Below, piece by piece: positions 39,159-46,254 of a stretch of 64,000 nt of DNA (the first letter of the stretch is position 1; each line of letters begins with the position of its first letter). Origin of the DNA: an uncultured delta proteobacterium (GTDB lineage: Bacteria; Myxococcota_A; Polyangia; Haliangiales; Haliangiaceae); NCBI GenBank assembly GCA_963774445.1, contig CAVZFC010000035.1:133470-197469 (forward strand), given 5' to 3'. The notes under the pieces are model-generated. The model did not search any database, was not told the origin of the DNA, and saw only the letters and a list, made by a program, of their open reading frames with translations. The translations under genes and the position numbers were made by a program.

Positions 39159-39833
39159 TCAACTCTTCGCGATCGTCAGCAGCATCTCGATCGTCACATC
39201 GGTGCCGACCTGTTCGTCGGGATCCTGCGTGGGATCGTCTCCGATGCCGAAGTCGAGCCGGGTGAAGGTGTGCTCGCCTTTGATCCGAATGCTGTTGGCG
39301 CTGCGGTCGAGCAGGTCGAAGCTGACCGGATAGGTCTTGGTCACCCCGTGGGCCGTCACCGTTGCGTCGGCGCGGTAGGTCGCGCCCGCCTTCTTGTTGA
39401 CGTGGTCGATCACCACCGTGGCCGTTGCGAACTTGCCGACGTCGAGATAAGAGGGCGACTTCAAGTCGTCGTCCCGCTCGTCCGAGCCGCTGTGCAGACT
39501 CGACAGATCGATCTCTATCGTCGCCGTGCCGCCCTCGATCGTCTGCGGATCGAACGCGGCTTTGACGACCCGGAACCTGTCGAACTGGAGCCGCACCGGA
39601 TCGCTCGGCTTCGGATGGTCGTGATGCGCGAGCACGACGATGTGGTCCGCGTCGGTGTTGGGTTCGCTCGTCGTCGGCGGTGTGGCGTTGCTCGGGGCCG
39701 TGGCCGCAGGATCCGTGGTCGCCGGCGCCGCACGGTCCTCCACTTTCTTGCAGGCGGGCACGGGGGCGAGGGCGCAGGCCAGAGCGGCCGGGACGATGAG
39801 AAGGCGTCGGGTCATGAGAGGTCTCCGCGTCAT
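39159..39833 (-). CDS. YceI-like lipoprotein.
   Basis: Lipobox AALACALAPVPAC. YceI pattern IEIDLSSLHSGSDERDDDLKSPSYLDVGKFATA...VTAHGVTKTYPVSF. Confidence 0.75.
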   Translation of the reverse strand: MTRRPLMTRRLLIVPAALACALAPVPACKKVEDRAAPATTDPAATAPSNATPPTTSEPNTDADHIVVLAHHDHPKPSDPVRLQFDRFRVVKAAFDPQTIEGGTATIEIDLSSLHSGSDERDDDLKSPSYLDVGKFATATVVIDHVNKKAGATYRADATVTAHGVTKTYPVSFDLLDRSANSIRIKGEHTFTRLDFGIGDDPTQDPDEQVGTDVTIEMLLTIAKS

Positions 39834-40846
39834 GGTGGTGGATCGCCCGCGCGCTGCAACACGAGTGAGACGTGGACGGGAATGACCGGGCTGTCGAAGT
39901 CGCCCGCATCTGCCGCCAGCGCGGTCTCGCGAATCGGCAAGGCAAAGTCGGCCTGGACGAGTAGGACGTCGCCGGTGACTGCGAGCCGGGCGCCTGCAGC
40001 GGGATCGAGCTTCTTCACGGTTCCCGTGATTGAGACCCGGTGGGTTCTGCCCATCAGCGAAACCATTCCGGGTGCGCGAAACGCGATGGTTCCCGGTCCA
40101 TCGGCGCGCACGGCTGCCAAGCGATCGAATGTGACGCCGATGCGAGGATATTCCGCCGCGTGCAGGTAGCCGTCGCGGGCGTGTCTCGTGCGCTTGCCTA
40201 CGCCGGTGTCCACCGACGCGGCGGCGACGCTGATGTCGCCGCGCATGGACCTCTCCAGCTCGCGCGGCGATCCGCGCCAGAAGCCGGAAATGTCACTGAA
40301 CCGGGCGTCGAACGTTTCGCCGCCGGCGGACAGCCGCGCCGTCACCGCGGTTCCCGGGTGGCTCACCACGACGTAGCGCCCCGGCGGTGCGTCGAATGCG
40401 CCTTCGACACCGTCTTCGAGGAGGACGGTCGCACTGGCGGGCAGCGTGTCGCGCGCGCGCAGCGGCTCCGCGCCGCTGGCAAACGCCGCGGCGGGAACCG
40501 CGAGGGAAACCGAAGCAAAGCCCCACGCGGTGAGCCGCAAATAGCGGAGTCGCGCTGCGCGCGCATTCTCCAGCCGCCGAGTGACGACCCCGAGCCCGGC
40601 GAGTGCGATCGCCAGCGCGGCGATCACCGCGCACACGTCCAGCCCCAGCCACAGCGGATGCTGCGGGCTGACCCGCCAGCTCAGGTCGGGATCGGGAACG
40701 TAGAAGCGCTTGGAAAGCGCGGTGTAGACGTTGCCCGAGCCCTGCAGGTACCAGCGGAACAGCGACGCGCCCAGTGCGACCGCCACGACAGCGGGCGGCG
40801 CGAAGGGCGAGCATTTCCGAAGGCTTTGGCTCAGTGACTCCGACAA
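39830..40846 (-). CDS. Membrane protein with a C-terminal YceI-like domain.
   Basis: N-terminal TM helices, then ISVAAASVDTGVGKRTRHARDGYLHAAEYPRIGVTF. Overlaps the downstream YceI-like gene as ATGA. The start is uncertain: the track start is a TTG at 40846, and internal GTGs are possible. Confidence 0.6.
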   Translation of the reverse strand: MSESLSQSLRKCSPFAPPAVVAVALGASLFRWYLQGSGNVYTALSKRFYVPDPDLSWRVSPQHPLWLGLDVCAVIAALAIALAGLGVVTRRLENARAARLRYLRLTAWGFASVSLAVPAAAFASGAEPLRARDTLPASATVLLEDGVEGAFDAPPGRYVVVSHPGTAVTARLSAGGETFDARFSDISGFWRGSPRELERSMRGDISVAAASVDTGVGKRTRHARDGYLHAAEYPRIGVTFDRLAAVRADGPGTIAFRAPGMVSLMGRTHRVSITGTVKKLDPAAGARLAVTGDVLLVQADFALPIRETALAADAGDFDSPVIPVHVSLVLQRAGDPPP

Positions 40847-40854
40847 GCCTCGTA

Positions 40855-40882
40855 ATGCTACTACAAATGTAGTTTAGGTCAA
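40855..40882 (-). promoter_or_regulatory. Sigma70-like promoter (TTGACC-16-TAGCAT on the minus strand) with the palindrome CTACA-aa-TGTAG inside the spacer, upstream of the YceI-like pair.
   Basis: ggtcaa (rc TTGACC) at 40877-40882, atgcta (rc TAGCAT) at 40855-40860, palindrome at 40861-40872. Confidence 0.3.
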
Positions 40883-40913
40883 GACCGCCTGCCCCACCAG
40901 CACAGTCCTCGGC

Positions 40914-41738
40914 CTACTGTCCGAGCTGGCGCTGGTATTCGTCCCACAGGACCGACATCGAGTGGGTCGGCTGGCCGTACGGGCTGCCCGGCAGCGACGC
41001 CCACTCGCGGTTCAGGTGGTGGATGGCATCGCTGAACTCGGCGTAGGTGTCGATGCCGTCCAGATCGTAGACCCCGCGCCCGCGGATCAGCTGCAGCGCT
41101 GCCAGATCCTGACTGGCCGGCGTGAAGTCGGGCAGGTCGAGCTTGTCGCGCACGCCGTCCCAGGTGGTCAACAGAAACTGGTAGCGACCGGCCGCGTCCG
41201 AGCAGTAGCTGCCGCTGCAGACCCGTCGCCGCGGATGATCGGAAAAATCGGTGAACGTCCGGTAGCCGAAGATCAGATCGTAGCGGTCGTTGGTGCCTTC
41301 GGAGTAGGCGATGGTGCCGAGGAAGGCGCACTGCCGCGCCGAGATGTCGGCGGCGCAGTTGCCGCCCAGCGGCAGGCTCGAGTCCGCCACGTGGGCGGTG
41401 AAGACATAGCCCTGGCTGAAGTCGCAGCCGGGCAGCATCTGCCGGGTGTTGACCAGCAGGTGATCGCCCACCGCCTCGGGCTCGGCCTGCAGCTCGACAT
41501 AGCTGCCCGCGGCCAGCTGGCACTTCTCGCTGCCGGGCTCGAGATCGGCGGACTGATCCGTCGTCTTCTTCAGCCACGTGTCCTGGTCGCCGATGACGAT
41601 GAACGGATAGGGCGAGTCACCTTTGCCGCCGCTGCCGACTCCCGGCACCGGCAGATCCGACCCGGCATCCGCCGGCGCGGCCACGCAGCCGCCCGCGAGC
41701 GCCATCGAGAGAACCAGAAACAACCAACGAGTCGACAA
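40914..41738 (-). CDS. Lambda R-type lysozyme (GH104 lytic transglycosylase) encoded as a lipoprotein with an extra ~110-aa N-terminal domain.
   Basis: TIAYSEGTNDRYDLIFGYRTFTDFSDHPRRR...SDAAGRYQFLLTTWDG...DFTPASQDLAALQLIRGRG...REWASLPGSPYGQ is nearly collinear with the phage lambda R endolysin (AWSEGT...GAGRYQLLSRWWD...DFSPKSQDAVALQQIKERG...IWASLPGAGYGQ). TTG start at 41738, preceded by AAGGAAGG, gives the signal peptide MSTRWLFLVLSMALAGGC. Confidence 0.8.
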   Translation of the reverse strand: MSTRWLFLVLSMALAGGCVAAPADAGSDLPVPGVGSGGKGDSPYPFIVIGDQDTWLKKTTDQSADLEPGSEKCQLAAGSYVELQAEPEAVGDHLLVNTRQMLPGCDFSQGYVFTAHVADSSLPLGGNCAADISARQCAFLGTIAYSEGTNDRYDLIFGYRTFTDFSDHPRRRVCSGSYCSDAAGRYQFLLTTWDGVRDKLDLPDFTPASQDLAALQLIRGRGVYDLDGIDTYAEFSDAIHHLNREWASLPGSPYGQPTHSMSVLWDEYQRQLGQ

Positions 41739-41924
41739 CGAAGCCTTCCTTTCGCCCGGCAGCGGGCGAACATCGCAAGCTCCGTTCCACGATCCGCGGA
41801 CCAGATTCCGCGCACTTCCGTGCGCCAAACCCCCGGCAACTCGAATGGCCAGGTGAGGAGACTCCCCTCAGGGCATGCGCCCCCAACGCCACGTGAGCTC
41901 GCGCTGCGCAGGGTGACGGTGGGC

Positions 41925-41969
41925 GCCCTTCGACTGCGGCCGCGCTGGGCGCGGCCGCAGTCGAAGGGC
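41925..41969. terminator. Perfect 21-bp-stem hairpin (gcccttcgactgcggccgcgc-tgg-gcgcggccgcagtcgaagggc) 40 nt downstream of the ABC-exporter operon. Likely a bidirectional terminator and a copy of the cccttcgac repeat family.
   Basis: Exact inverted repeat read from the sequence. It shares the cagggtgacgg / cccttcgactg / ggccgcgc motifs with the repeat cluster at 55379-55740. Confidence 0.55.
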
Positions 41970-42009
41970 GAACGGGTGGGGAGGGTAGGAGCGGGGGAGG
42001 GGGCCGCTG

Positions 42010-43089
42010 CTAGTGCTTGGGCTTCTTGATCTTGGCGTTCTTGTCGATGCCGGACAGGACCTCGATCTTGATGCCGTCGGACAGGCCGGTCTTGATGTCG
42101 CGGCGCTCGAATTTTTGCGGCGCGGTCTCGACCTCGACGTACGGCTTGCCCTTGTCGAACTGCAGCAGGCTCTCGTCGATAGCCAGAACCTTCTCGCGGT
42201 GGTCCAGGACGATGTCGGCGTTGGCGCTGTAGTTGGCGCGGATGAAGACATTTTCCGGGACCTTGATGTTGGCCTTGATCTCGAACTGGATGGCCCCGTC
42301 CTGGAGCACGCCCTTGGGCGAGATGTACTCGAGCTTGCCCTTGAACGTCTGCTTCTCCAGCGCGCCGATGTGGATCACCAGATCCATCCCTTCCTTGATC
42401 TTGCCGACCTCGGATTCGTCAACGTTGCCCTGGAAGATCATGTCGTTCATGTTGGCGATCGAGGCGACGGTGGTGCCGGCGTTGAAGGTGTTGGACTCGA
42501 TGACCGACTCGCCCTGCTCGACCGGGACCGCCAGGACCATGCCCTTGACGGTGGAGCGGACCTGGGTGTTGGCCCGGCCGTTGCCGCGGGCGGCGCCTTC
42601 CTTGACCAGCTGGAGGTTGGACCGGGCCGCGTCGTATTCTTGCTTCCTGAGCTGGTAGTCGAACCGGAACTTGGTCAGCTCGACGTCGGAAATGACCTTC
42701 TGCTTGAACAGACCCTCGTGACGGTCGAGCTCCTGCTTGGCGTTGTCCAGGCTGATCCTGGCCTGCTTGAGGCTGGCTTCGGCGCGGTTCAGGGTGACCG
42801 AGTCGGGGATGATCTCGATCTCGGCGATCAGGTCGCCCTTTTCGATCGGGGTGCCCGGCTCGACGTCGAGCTTCTTGATGACGCCCGAGACGCGCGGCTT
42901 GATCTCGACCTCTTCGCGGGGAACGATGGCGCCGGTCGCGACCGTCTTGTTGACGATGTCGGTGATGGCCGGGCTGTCGGTCTCGTAGACCACCGGTTTG
43001 CTCTGCGACTTCTTGTACAGGAACAGGAGGGTCCAGGCGAAGGCGGCGACGATCGCCAGCCCGAGGACGATGGGGATTGCGCGTTTCAT
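42010..43089 (-). CDS. Efflux membrane fusion protein (HlyD/MacA family).
   Basis: N-terminal TM segment IVLGLAIVAAFAWTLLFL, a coiled-coil region, and beta-barrel motifs. It overlaps the upstream permease stop by 1 nt. Confidence 0.85.
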   Translation of the reverse strand: MKRAIPIVLGLAIVAAFAWTLLFLYKKSQSKPVVYETDSPAITDIVNKTVATGAIVPREEVEIKPRVSGVIKKLDVEPGTPIEKGDLIAEIEIIPDSVTLNRAEASLKQARISLDNAKQELDRHEGLFKQKVISDVELTKFRFDYQLRKQEYDAARSNLQLVKEGAARGNGRANTQVRSTVKGMVLAVPVEQGESVIESNTFNAGTTVASIANMNDMIFQGNVDESEVGKIKEGMDLVIHIGALEKQTFKGKLEYISPKGVLQDGAIQFEIKANIKVPENVFIRANYSANADIVLDHREKVLAIDESLLQFDKGKPYVEVETAPQKFERRDIKTGLSDGIKIEVLSGIDKNAKIKKPKH

Positions 43090-44339
43090 TATTCGGCCCT
43101 GAGTGCTTCCACGGGGTTGATGCGGGCGGCCTGGCGGGCGGGGAAGATTCCCGCGAGGCCACCGCTCACGATGAGGATCACGGCGCACAGGAGCGCCACG
43201 CTGATGTCGATCTGCGGGGCTGCGAAGACCGGGTTGTCCGGGATCAGCCAGCCGACCAGCGCCAGCAGCCCGACGCCGGCGATGATGCCCAGGTAGCCGG
43301 CCAGCGACGTCAGGACGATCGACTCCTGCACCACCAGCGTGATCACCGACCACGGGGTGGCACCCATCGCCTTGCGGATGCCGATCTCCTTGGTCCGTTC
43401 CTTGACCGTGATCAGCATGATGTTGCTGACGCCGATCACGCCAGCCATCAGCGTCATGATGCCGACGATCCACATGAAGATCTTGATGCCGCGGAACAGC
43501 ATGACCATCTTCATGAACTCCTTGTGCGCGTTGAACGAGCCGATGGCGTGCTCGTCCTTGGGCGAGATCTTGTGCCGCTCGGCCAGGAGCGCCCGCACTC
43601 GCTTCTCGATGACCTCGCCCGAGACTCCCGGCTTGCCGGTCATGGCGAACCAGCCGACCTTGTTGCCGAAGTTGAAGGCCTGCTGAAAGGTGGTGAAGGG
43701 AATGTTGATGGTGGTCTCTTGCCGGTCGCCCATGTCGCCCTTGGCGCGCGCGCGGTAGACGCCGACGACCTGAAAGTAGACCCCCTGGACGCGGATGTAC
43801 TGGCCGACCGGGTCCTCTCCGCGCTCGAACAGCAGGTCGGCGACCTGCTTGCCGATGACCGCCACCTTGCGCCGCTGGGCGATGTCCAGGTCGTTGATGA
43901 AGCGGCCCTTCTCGAAGCGCACCGACTGGATGTTGATGATGTCGGGGTAGTCGCCCATCACCTGGAAGTTGCCGGTCTTGCTGCCGTGGGTGACGTTGTC
44001 GCCGTCGCGAAAGCCACCCAGCTGGTTGCGCGGCGCCAGGTACTGCAGACCGTCAACCTTGGCGCGCAGCGCGTTGACGTCGTCGTTGTCGTACTCGACG
44101 TGGCGCCCGGGCGGCAGGCCGGCGAACGGCAGCGACGTGCGCTGGCCCCAGACGAAGACCGAGTTGGTGGCGAAGCCGCGCATGTTGCTGGAGACGCCGC
44201 GCTGCAGCCCGTCGCCGAAGCCGAGCATCGCCAAGAGCATCAGCATGCCCCAGAAGACGCCGAAAACGGTCAGCGCGGTGCGCAGCCGGTTCTTGCGCGC
44301 GACCGCGATGATCTCCTGCCATTTGTCCCAGTCGAGCAC
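43089..44339 (-). CDS. ABC transporter permease (FtsX/MacB-like).
   Basis: N-terminal TM segment, a large periplasmic domain, and the FtsX C-terminal 3-TM region ..KERTKEIGIRKAMGATP.. Confidence 0.85.
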   Translation of the reverse strand: MLDWDKWQEIIAVARKNRLRTALTVFGVFWGMLMLLAMLGFGDGLQRGVSSNMRGFATNSVFVWGQRTSLPFAGLPPGRHVEYDNDDVNALRAKVDGLQYLAPRNQLGGFRDGDNVTHGSKTGNFQVMGDYPDIINIQSVRFEKGRFINDLDIAQRRKVAVIGKQVADLLFERGEDPVGQYIRVQGVYFQVVGVYRARAKGDMGDRQETTINIPFTTFQQAFNFGNKVGWFAMTGKPGVSGEVIEKRVRALLAERHKISPKDEHAIGSFNAHKEFMKMVMLFRGIKIFMWIVGIMTLMAGVIGVSNIMLITVKERTKEIGIRKAMGATPWSVITLVVQESIVLTSLAGYLGIIAGVGLLALVGWLIPDNPVFAAPQIDISVALLCAVILIVSGGLAGIFPARQAARINPVEALRAE

Positions 44340-44341
44340 GG

Positions 44342-45577
44342 CTACTCCTCGCGCAGCGCTACGATCGGGTTGACCCGCGCCGCCCGGCGGGCCGGCACGA
44401 AGCCGGCCAGCGCGCCGAACAGGACCAGGAGCACGGTCGCGCCCAGCACCACGCCGAGATCGACCTGCGGGTTCATGAAATATTCGTTCTTGGGCAGGAT
44501 GCGGTCCATCACCTCGAGCACCAGCACGCCGACGACCACCCCGCAGTAGCCGGCCAGGGAGGTGAGGAAAACCGATTCCTGCATCACCAGCGCGATCAGC
44601 GAGCCGGGTGTCGCCCCGACCGCCTTGCGCAGGCCGATCTCTCGCGTCCGTTCCTTGACCGAGATCAGCATGATGTTGCTCACCCCGACGATGCCCGCGA
44701 CGATGGTGCCGATGCCGACGACCCAGATGAAGACGCGGATCATGGAGAAGATCTGCTCGACCTCGGCCGGGCCCTCGAACTGATTGCGCAGGCGGATGGC
44801 GCGTTTGTCGGTGGGGTCGTACTTGTGCCGCTGGGCCAGCAGCGCGCGCACCTGCTCCTCGATCCGCTTGGAGCCGGCCAGGTCGGTGTTGGCCAGCGTG
44901 AACATGATCGTGTGCACGGTGTCGCCGCCGCCGTAGGCCTGCTGGGCGGTGGAGATCGGGATGTACATCTTGCGCATCTCGTTCTCGCCGCCCTCGTCCT
45001 CGAACACGCCGATCACCAGGTACGAGATCCCGCCGATCGTCAGGTACTTGCCGACCGGGTCGTCACCGCGGAACAGGAAGTCGCTGACTTTCTGGCCGAT
45101 CACCGTCACCTTGCGCCGCTCGGCCTGGTCGTTGTCGTCCAGGAAGCGGCCCTTCACGACGATGGTGTTCTCGAGGTAGCGGTGGTCCGGGTGCGTGGCG
45201 CGGATGTCGAAGCTCGAGGTGCGGTCGCCGTAGCGGACCACGTAGGCGTCGCCGCGCAGGTAGTAGCGCGACGTGATGTGCTCGATCTCGGGGATCGAGC
45301 GCTTGATCGCCTCGTAGTCGGCGTTGGTGAAGCGGATGTTGCGGCCGATCGGCAGCCCGGCGTACGGCTTGGTGGTCTTGCCCGACCAGATCCAGATCGA
45401 GTTGACCGCGTCGTCGCGGAACTTGTACTTGACCGCATTCTCCAGCCCGGTGCCCGCGCCCAAGAGGATCACCAGCATGAAGATGCCCCAGGAGACGCTG
45501 AGGCTGGTGAGGAAGGTGCGCAGCTTGTTCCGGCGCAGGACGCCGAAAATCTCCTGCCATCGGTCGATGCCGATCAC
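44342..45577 (-). CDS. ABC transporter permease (FtsX/MacB-like), second copy.
   Basis: Same architecture as the adjacent permease (..KERTREIGLRKAVGATPG..). The two permeases are paralogous. Confidence 0.85.
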   Translation of the reverse strand: MIGIDRWQEIFGVLRRNKLRTFLTSLSVSWGIFMLVILLGAGTGLENAVKYKFRDDAVNSIWIWSGKTTKPYAGLPIGRNIRFTNADYEAIKRSIPEIEHITSRYYLRGDAYVVRYGDRTSSFDIRATHPDHRYLENTIVVKGRFLDDNDQAERRKVTVIGQKVSDFLFRGDDPVGKYLTIGGISYLVIGVFEDEGGENEMRKMYIPISTAQQAYGGGDTVHTIMFTLANTDLAGSKRIEEQVRALLAQRHKYDPTDKRAIRLRNQFEGPAEVEQIFSMIRVFIWVVGIGTIVAGIVGVSNIMLISVKERTREIGLRKAVGATPGSLIALVMQESVFLTSLAGYCGVVVGVLVLEVMDRILPKNEYFMNPQVDLGVVLGATVLLVLFGALAGFVPARRAARVNPIVALREE

Positions 45578-46254
45578 GCAGCCTCGCGTTCCTCGCCCTC
45601 GACACGTCCGTCACGCAGGCGGATCACGCGGTCGGTCATCTCGGCGATGTCGTGCTCGTGGGTCACGACCACCACGGTGATCCCGCGCGAGTGGATGTCC
45701 TTGAGGATCTCCATGATCGCGCAGGAGGTCTCCGAGTCGAGGGCGCCGGTGGGTTCGTCGGCCAGCACGATCTTGGGCTGCGCGATCAGCGCGCGCGCGA
45801 TGGCCACCCGCTGCTTCTGGCCGCCGGACATCTCGGCCGGCACGTGCTCGGCCCACTCCAAGAGGCCCACCCGTTCGAGGTATTCGGCGGCGATCTTGTT
45901 GCGCTTGCGCCGCGGCACCTTCTGGTAATAGAGCGGCAGCGCCACGTTCTCGAGCGCGCTCTTGAACGGCAGCAGGTTGAACGACTGGAAGACGAAGCCG
46001 ATCATCCGGTTGCGGTAGTAGGCCGCCCGGCGCTCGGACAGCGACTTCACCAGCACGCCGTCCAGGTGGTAGCTGCCGCGGTCGTAGTCGTCGAGGATGC
46101 CCAGGATGTTGAGCAGCGTCGACTTGCCCGATCCGGACGAGCCCATGATCGACACCAGCTCGCCCTCGTTGATCTCCAGGTTGAGATCCTTGAGCACGTG
46201 CAGCGGGTGCGCACCCACCTTGTAGAACTTGTTTACTTTTTCCAGGCGAATCAT
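45574..46254 (-). CDS. ABC transporter ATP-binding protein (MacB/LolD-like).
   Basis: Walker A GSSGSGKST, signature LSGGQKQRVAIARAL, Walker B IVLADEPTGALD. Confidence 0.9.
   Translation of the reverse strand: MIRLEKVNKFYKVGAHPLHVLKDLNLEINEGELVSIMGSSGSGKSTLLNILGILDDYDRGSYHLDGVLVKSLSERRAAYYRNRMIGFVFQSFNLLPFKSALENVALPLYYQKVPRRKRNKIAAEYLERVGLLEWAEHVPAEMSGGQKQRVAIARALIAQPKIVLADEPTGALDSETSCAIMEILKDIHSRGITVVVVTHEHDIAEMTDRVIRLRDGRVEGEEREAA

What the first reader, a model, noticed from the sequence alone, without database searches (positions are those of the whole stretch)
39159..46254. Phage lambda R-type lytic transglycosylase encoded as a chromosomal lipoprotein, next to two YceI-like genes and a MacAB-type exporter
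The gene at 40914-41738 is nearly collinear with the lambda endolysin R (GH104). It keeps the catalytic AYSEGT glutamate and the GRYQ(F/L)L and WASLPG blocks. It has also acquired a lipoprotein signal peptide (MSTRWLFLVLSMALAGGC) and a ~110-aa N-terminal domain. No holin, integrase, capsid or tail genes are nearby. The flanking genes are two overlapping YceI-like periplasmic or membrane proteins under their own palindrome-bearing promoter, and a four-gene ABC exporter (ATPase, two FtsX permeases, membrane fusion protein). That exporter ends in a perfect 21-bp-stem terminator. A surface-anchored lambda-type lysozyme in a predatory myxobacterium could be a prey-lysis or kin-discrimination effector, or an autolysin. 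The YceI-like pair are candidate partner or immunity proteins. Those functional ideas are inference only.
Basis: partly seen in the sequence, partly recalled or inferred. Interest (0 to 1): 0.65.

Follow-up and report, generated by a model that had tools for sequence, protein, structure and literature searches.

The report
Domesticated lambda-type lytic transglycosylase lipoprotein
This chromosomal gene encodes a membrane-anchored relative of the phage lambda cell-wall-cutting enzyme, fused to a wall-binding module and preceded by a sigma-54-type promoter; it belongs to a widespread, unstudied cellular family rather than a prophage, and the neighbouring YceI genes and ABC exporter show no link to it.

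Summary
Window 40914-41738 (- strand, TTG start) encodes a 274-aa protein in four parts: a lipoprotein signal peptide, a flexible linker, an ~85-aa beta domain and a lambda-R-type (GH104, lytic transglycosylase family 4) catalytic domain with the catalytic Glu (E147). The 64-kb window contains no recognisable phage genes.

New findings:
- The N-domain has an SH3b-like fold and no Pfam family. Elsewhere it occurs in 1-5 copies fused to M23, GH108 and C39-like domains, so it is a mobile wall-targeting module.
- The two-domain protein belongs to a conserved cellular clade found in Myxococcota, Oligoflexia/Silvanigrellaceae and Elusimicrobia. The architecture is absent from the phage and viral-contig collections searched.
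- The gene has a sigma-54 -24/-12 promoter. This element is conserved upstream of homologues in Oligoflexia and Myxococcota, and in Oligoflexia it comes with a palindromic upstream site.

No YceI gene and no adjacent MacAB-type exporter lies next to any of 80 homologues. The region reads as three independent transcription units.

Most likely the protein is an Mlt-like, outer-membrane-tethered periplasmic lytic transglycosylase, expressed conditionally, that remodels the cell's own wall. A role against prey is not excluded. Overall it is a new variant of a known kind, of moderate interest.

The parts
40914..41738 (-). CDS of the 274-aa lipoprotein-type GH104 (family 4) lytic transglycosylase; TTG start
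   Evidence: A 274-aa product with this start is also on record (P0121). The NCBI-derived call P0001 starts at internal Met12 and so loses the signal peptide.
41685..41738 (-). Signal peptide with lipobox L-A-G-G-C (Cys18)
   Evidence: Sequence. A lipobox Cys sits at the equivalent place in nearly all Myxococcota-type and Oligoflexia-type homologues.
41619..41684 (-). Disordered Gly/Pro/Ala-rich tether (aa 19-40)
   Evidence: pLDDT is below 50 over residues 25-40 of the full model. This stretch varies in length in the family alignment.
41364..41618 (-). SH3b-like all-beta N-domain (aa 41-125) with invariant Cys73 and Cys105
40917..41348 (-). GH104 / lambda-lysozyme-fold catalytic domain (aa 131-274) with invariant Cys174 and Cys179
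41298..41300 (-). GAA codon of the catalytic Glu147 (aligns with lambda R Glu19)
   Evidence: Alignment. Nearly invariant in 79 homologues. Codon read.
41775..41789 (-). Sigma-54-type promoter TGGAAC-N5-TTGC (-24 GG / -12 GC), 36 nt from the -12 element to the start codon
   Evidence: Two matches in the window against 0.14 expected. Identical in sister genome L081. The element is conserved upstream of homologues.
41810..41825 (.). Palindrome GCGCAC-N4-GTGCGC just upstream of the -24 element; candidate activator site
   Evidence: Unique in the window. In L081 the arms are conserved while the spacer differs. The function is inferred.
41854..41870 (.). Imperfect palindrome TGAGGGGAGTCTCCTCA about 65 nt upstream of the -24 element; candidate activator site
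   Evidence: Unique in the window. Identical in L081, whereas the sequence further upstream is not alignable. The function is inferred.
41744..41750 (-). Shine-Dalgarno-like AGGAAGG, 5 nt before the TTG start
   Evidence: Nearly conserved in L081 (AGGATGG).
41924..41970 (.). Perfect 22-bp hairpin with a 3-nt loop, downstream of the exporter operon; likely a terminator or RNA-stabilising stem without a U tract
   Evidence: RNA fold -61 kcal/mol, z = -7.9. No Rfam family. Not conserved in L081.
42010..46254 (-). Bystander four-gene MacAB-like exporter operon: ABC ATPase 45574-46254, FtsX permease 44342-45577, FtsX permease 43089-44339, HlyD-type adaptor 42010-43089
   Evidence: The genes overlap or abut each other. 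No equivalent operon is adjacent to any homologue.
40855..40882 (-). Sigma-70-like promoter TTGACC-16-TAGCAT of the YceI pair; its spacer carries the palindrome ACTACA-TT-TGTAGT (40860-40873)
   Evidence: In L081 the -35 hexamer and both half-sites are kept while the two central bases differ. The palindrome is unique in the window.
39159..40846 (-). Bystander YceI pair: 39830-40846 (about 150 aa of membrane-spanning N-terminus plus a YceI domain) and 39159-39833 (signal peptide plus a YceI domain)
   Evidence: Pfam YceI at 4e-11 and 4e-21. Absent next to all 80 homologues.

Best explanation
The gene encodes a cellular (non-phage) family-4 lytic transglycosylase.

Shown:
- It has a lambda-lysozyme-fold catalytic domain with the single catalytic Glu.
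- That domain is preceded by an SH3b-like domain, which elsewhere is attached to other peptidoglycan hydrolase domains.
- A lipoprotein signal and a ~22-residue tether come first.
- The two-domain protein belongs to a bacterial clade distinct from the viral sequences sampled.
- A sigma-54-type -24/-12 promoter lies 36 nt upstream of the start codon and recurs upstream of homologues.

Inferred:
- After Sec export and lipidation the protein hangs from a membrane into the periplasm, probably from the inner leaflet of the outer membrane, as the E. coli Mlt enzymes do.
- The SH3b-like domain docks it on the sacculus.
- The catalytic domain cleaves MurNAc-GlcNAc bonds and leaves 1,6-anhydroMurNAc ends.
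- Invariant Cys pairs (73/105 and 174/179) form periplasmic disulfides.
- Transcription needs sigma-54 and an unidentified enhancer-binding activator. The enzyme would therefore be made on a signal, to remodel the cell's own wall, rather than constitutively.

The YceI pair and the MacAB-like exporter are separate transcription units with no demonstrated link to it.
For: - Homology and fold.
- Catalytic Glu and invariant Cys pairs.
- Lipobox conserved in relatives.
- SH3b-like fold.
- The same domain fused to M23, GH108 and C39-like domains in 1-5 copies.
- Cellular clade: 843 homologues, with full-length matches in three phyla. No record in the phage collection covers 80% or more of the protein. 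All 264 viral-contig relatives match the catalytic domain only. In a neighbour-joining tree none of the 80 viral sequences falls inside the two-domain clade, and the Cys174-Cys179 motif is in 45/52 two-domain sequences against 0/80 viral ones.
- Housekeeping settings: Elusimicrobia copies lie downstream of gyrB-gyrA, and Oligoflexia copies lie next to an ABC-F gene.
- No neighbour shared across lineages and no immunity-like gene.
- Sigma-54 promoter in the window: 2 matches against 0.14 expected.
- Sigma-54 promoter in relatives: 20/48 homologue loci carry GG-N8-TTGC within 150 nt upstream, against 1/48 on the antisense strand and 3/48 inside the gene. 18/22 Oligoflexia-group loci carry [TC]GGC-N7-TTGC[TA], against about 0.1 expected from the background rate, and 0/22 with the spacing shifted by one base.
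- A conserved TGTC-N9-GACA upstream site in Oligoflexia loci.
- The promoter block is conserved in L081 while its flanks diverge.
Against: - No enzymology, localisation data or transcript data exist.
- No enhancer-binding protein gene (GAFTGA motif) is in the window.
- SH3b-type wall-binding modules and multi-repeat fusions to M23 or GH108 domains are typical of secreted bacteriolysins.
- The family is richest in two lineages with many predators.
- In metagenomes the Oligoflexia-type upstream site plus sigma-54 promoter also precedes small exported proteins, including a secreted ankyrin-repeat protein. That looks more like a secretome or effector regulon than a wall-maintenance one.
- Outer-membrane versus inner-membrane or surface localisation cannot be read from the sequence.
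- There is no terminator between the GH104 stop codon and the YceI promoter, so read-through into the YceI genes is not excluded.
- The tree is neighbour-joining without bootstrap support.
Confidence: 0.55

Rival explanations
1. It is an offensive bacteriolytic enzyme. As an outer-membrane lipoprotein it would be loaded into outer-membrane vesicles or exposed on the surface, delivered to prey or competitor cells, docked on the foreign sacculus by the SH3b-like domain, and then cut that wall.
For: - The host looks like a myxobacterium; the best genome relatives are Kofleriaceae and Myxococcales MAGs.
- The family is abundant in Oligoflexia/Silvanigrellaceae.
- A binding module plus a lytic domain is the plan of lysostaphin-like exolysins.
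- The module is also fused in several copies to M23 and GH108 domains.
- The Oligoflexia-type sigma-54 upstream site also precedes exported proteins, including an ankyrin-repeat protein.
- A secreted MltA-like lytic transglycosylase is used by Bdellovibrio during prey invasion (PMC10127604, abstract).
Against: - Nothing at the locus points to a delivery system.
- Membrane tethering by a lipid anchor is also the normal state of housekeeping Mlt enzymes.
- The family occurs in Elusimicrobia in a gyrB-gyrA neighbourhood.
- No self-protection gene is conserved next to it.
- The sequences are conserved rather than polymorphic.
Confidence: 0.2
2. It is a specialised 'space-making' lytic transglycosylase that opens the wall for assembly of a trans-envelope machine or for a developmental step such as sporulation or programmed lysis. 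It would be switched on together with that programme by a sigma-54 activator.
For: - The gene has a sigma-54 promoter with candidate activator sites.
- Single Oligoflexia genomes carry several paralogues, each with the promoter.
- Lytic transglycosylases recruited by large machines are known, for example MltD with the H. pylori flagellum and MltE with the E. coli T6SS, as cited in PMC11444678.
Against: - No machine genes (secretion, pilus, flagellum or spore-coat) are conserved next to the gene in any lineage.
- The window around it holds kinases, TPR proteins and metabolic genes only.
Confidence: 0.15
3. It is an exchange-delivered kin-discrimination toxin, with the downstream YceI genes as immunity proteins. 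It would work like the lipoprotein toxins with adjacent immunity genes that myxobacteria swap by outer-membrane exchange.
For: - It is a lipoprotein with two exported proteins encoded immediately downstream.
- There is no terminator between them.
- The arrangement is kept in sister genome L081.
Against: - None of the 80 homologue loci has a YceI neighbour.
- The YceI pair has its own promoter and operator-like palindrome.
- YceI is a widespread lipid/isoprenoid-binding family (background knowledge).
- The family is conserved in phyla that are not known to perform outer-membrane exchange.
- The catalytic domain is not polymorphic.
Confidence: 0.04
4. It is a remnant prophage endolysin with no cellular role.
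For: The catalytic domain is homologous to lambda R and to 644 phage records.
Against: - No phage-type Pfam family was found among the ORFs scanned across 1-62.4 kb of the window.
- Codon-position GC is like that of neighbouring genes.
- The signal peptide, extra domain, Cys pairs and promoter are conserved across phyla.
- The two-domain form is absent from the phage collections searched.
Confidence: 0.02

Closest known systems
Phage lambda endolysin R (GH104; lytic transglycosylase family 4; PDB 1am7, 3d3d)
   Same: - The catalytic fold is the same (TM 0.82, about 40% identity).
- The single catalytic Glu sits in an (A/S)-E-G-T context.
- The GRYQ and WASLPG blocks are kept.
   Different: - Lambda R is a 158-aa cytoplasmic protein released by a holin within a lysis cassette.
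- This protein has a lipoprotein signal, a tether, an SH3b-like domain and two invariant Cys pairs.
- It has a sigma-54-type promoter, no holin or Rz genes, and sits in a chromosomal setting.
Membrane-bound lytic transglycosylases of Gram-negative bacteria (E. coli MltA-E type lipoproteins)
   Same: - A lipid anchor with a periplasmic catalytic domain that cuts glycan strands.
- Several paralogues per genome.
- No immunity partner.
   Different: - Those enzymes belong to families 1-3, which have different catalytic folds. Family 4 is described in the literature as comprising lambda phage endolysins (PMC12547810).
- The published list of 14 M. xanthus lytic transglycosylases contains none assigned to family 4; one is listed as 'family unknown' (PMC11444678).
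Modular bacteriolysins and endolysins with SH3b wall-binding domains (lysostaphin, phiSM101 Psm, PlyPSA, NlpC/P60-SH3b enzymes)
   Same: - The plan is a binding module plus a lytic module.
- The N-domain's best structural matches are the SH3b domains of these proteins.
   Different: - Those proteins come mostly from Gram-positive systems and usually carry the binding domain at the C-terminus.
Bd3285, the secreted MltA-like lytic transglycosylase of Bdellovibrio bacteriovorus
   Same: It is a lytic transglycosylase in a predatory lineage that is exported beyond the cytoplasm (PMC10127604, abstract).
   Different: It belongs to a different catalytic family (MltA, family 2), is secreted into prey rather than lipid-anchored, and is not homologous to this protein.

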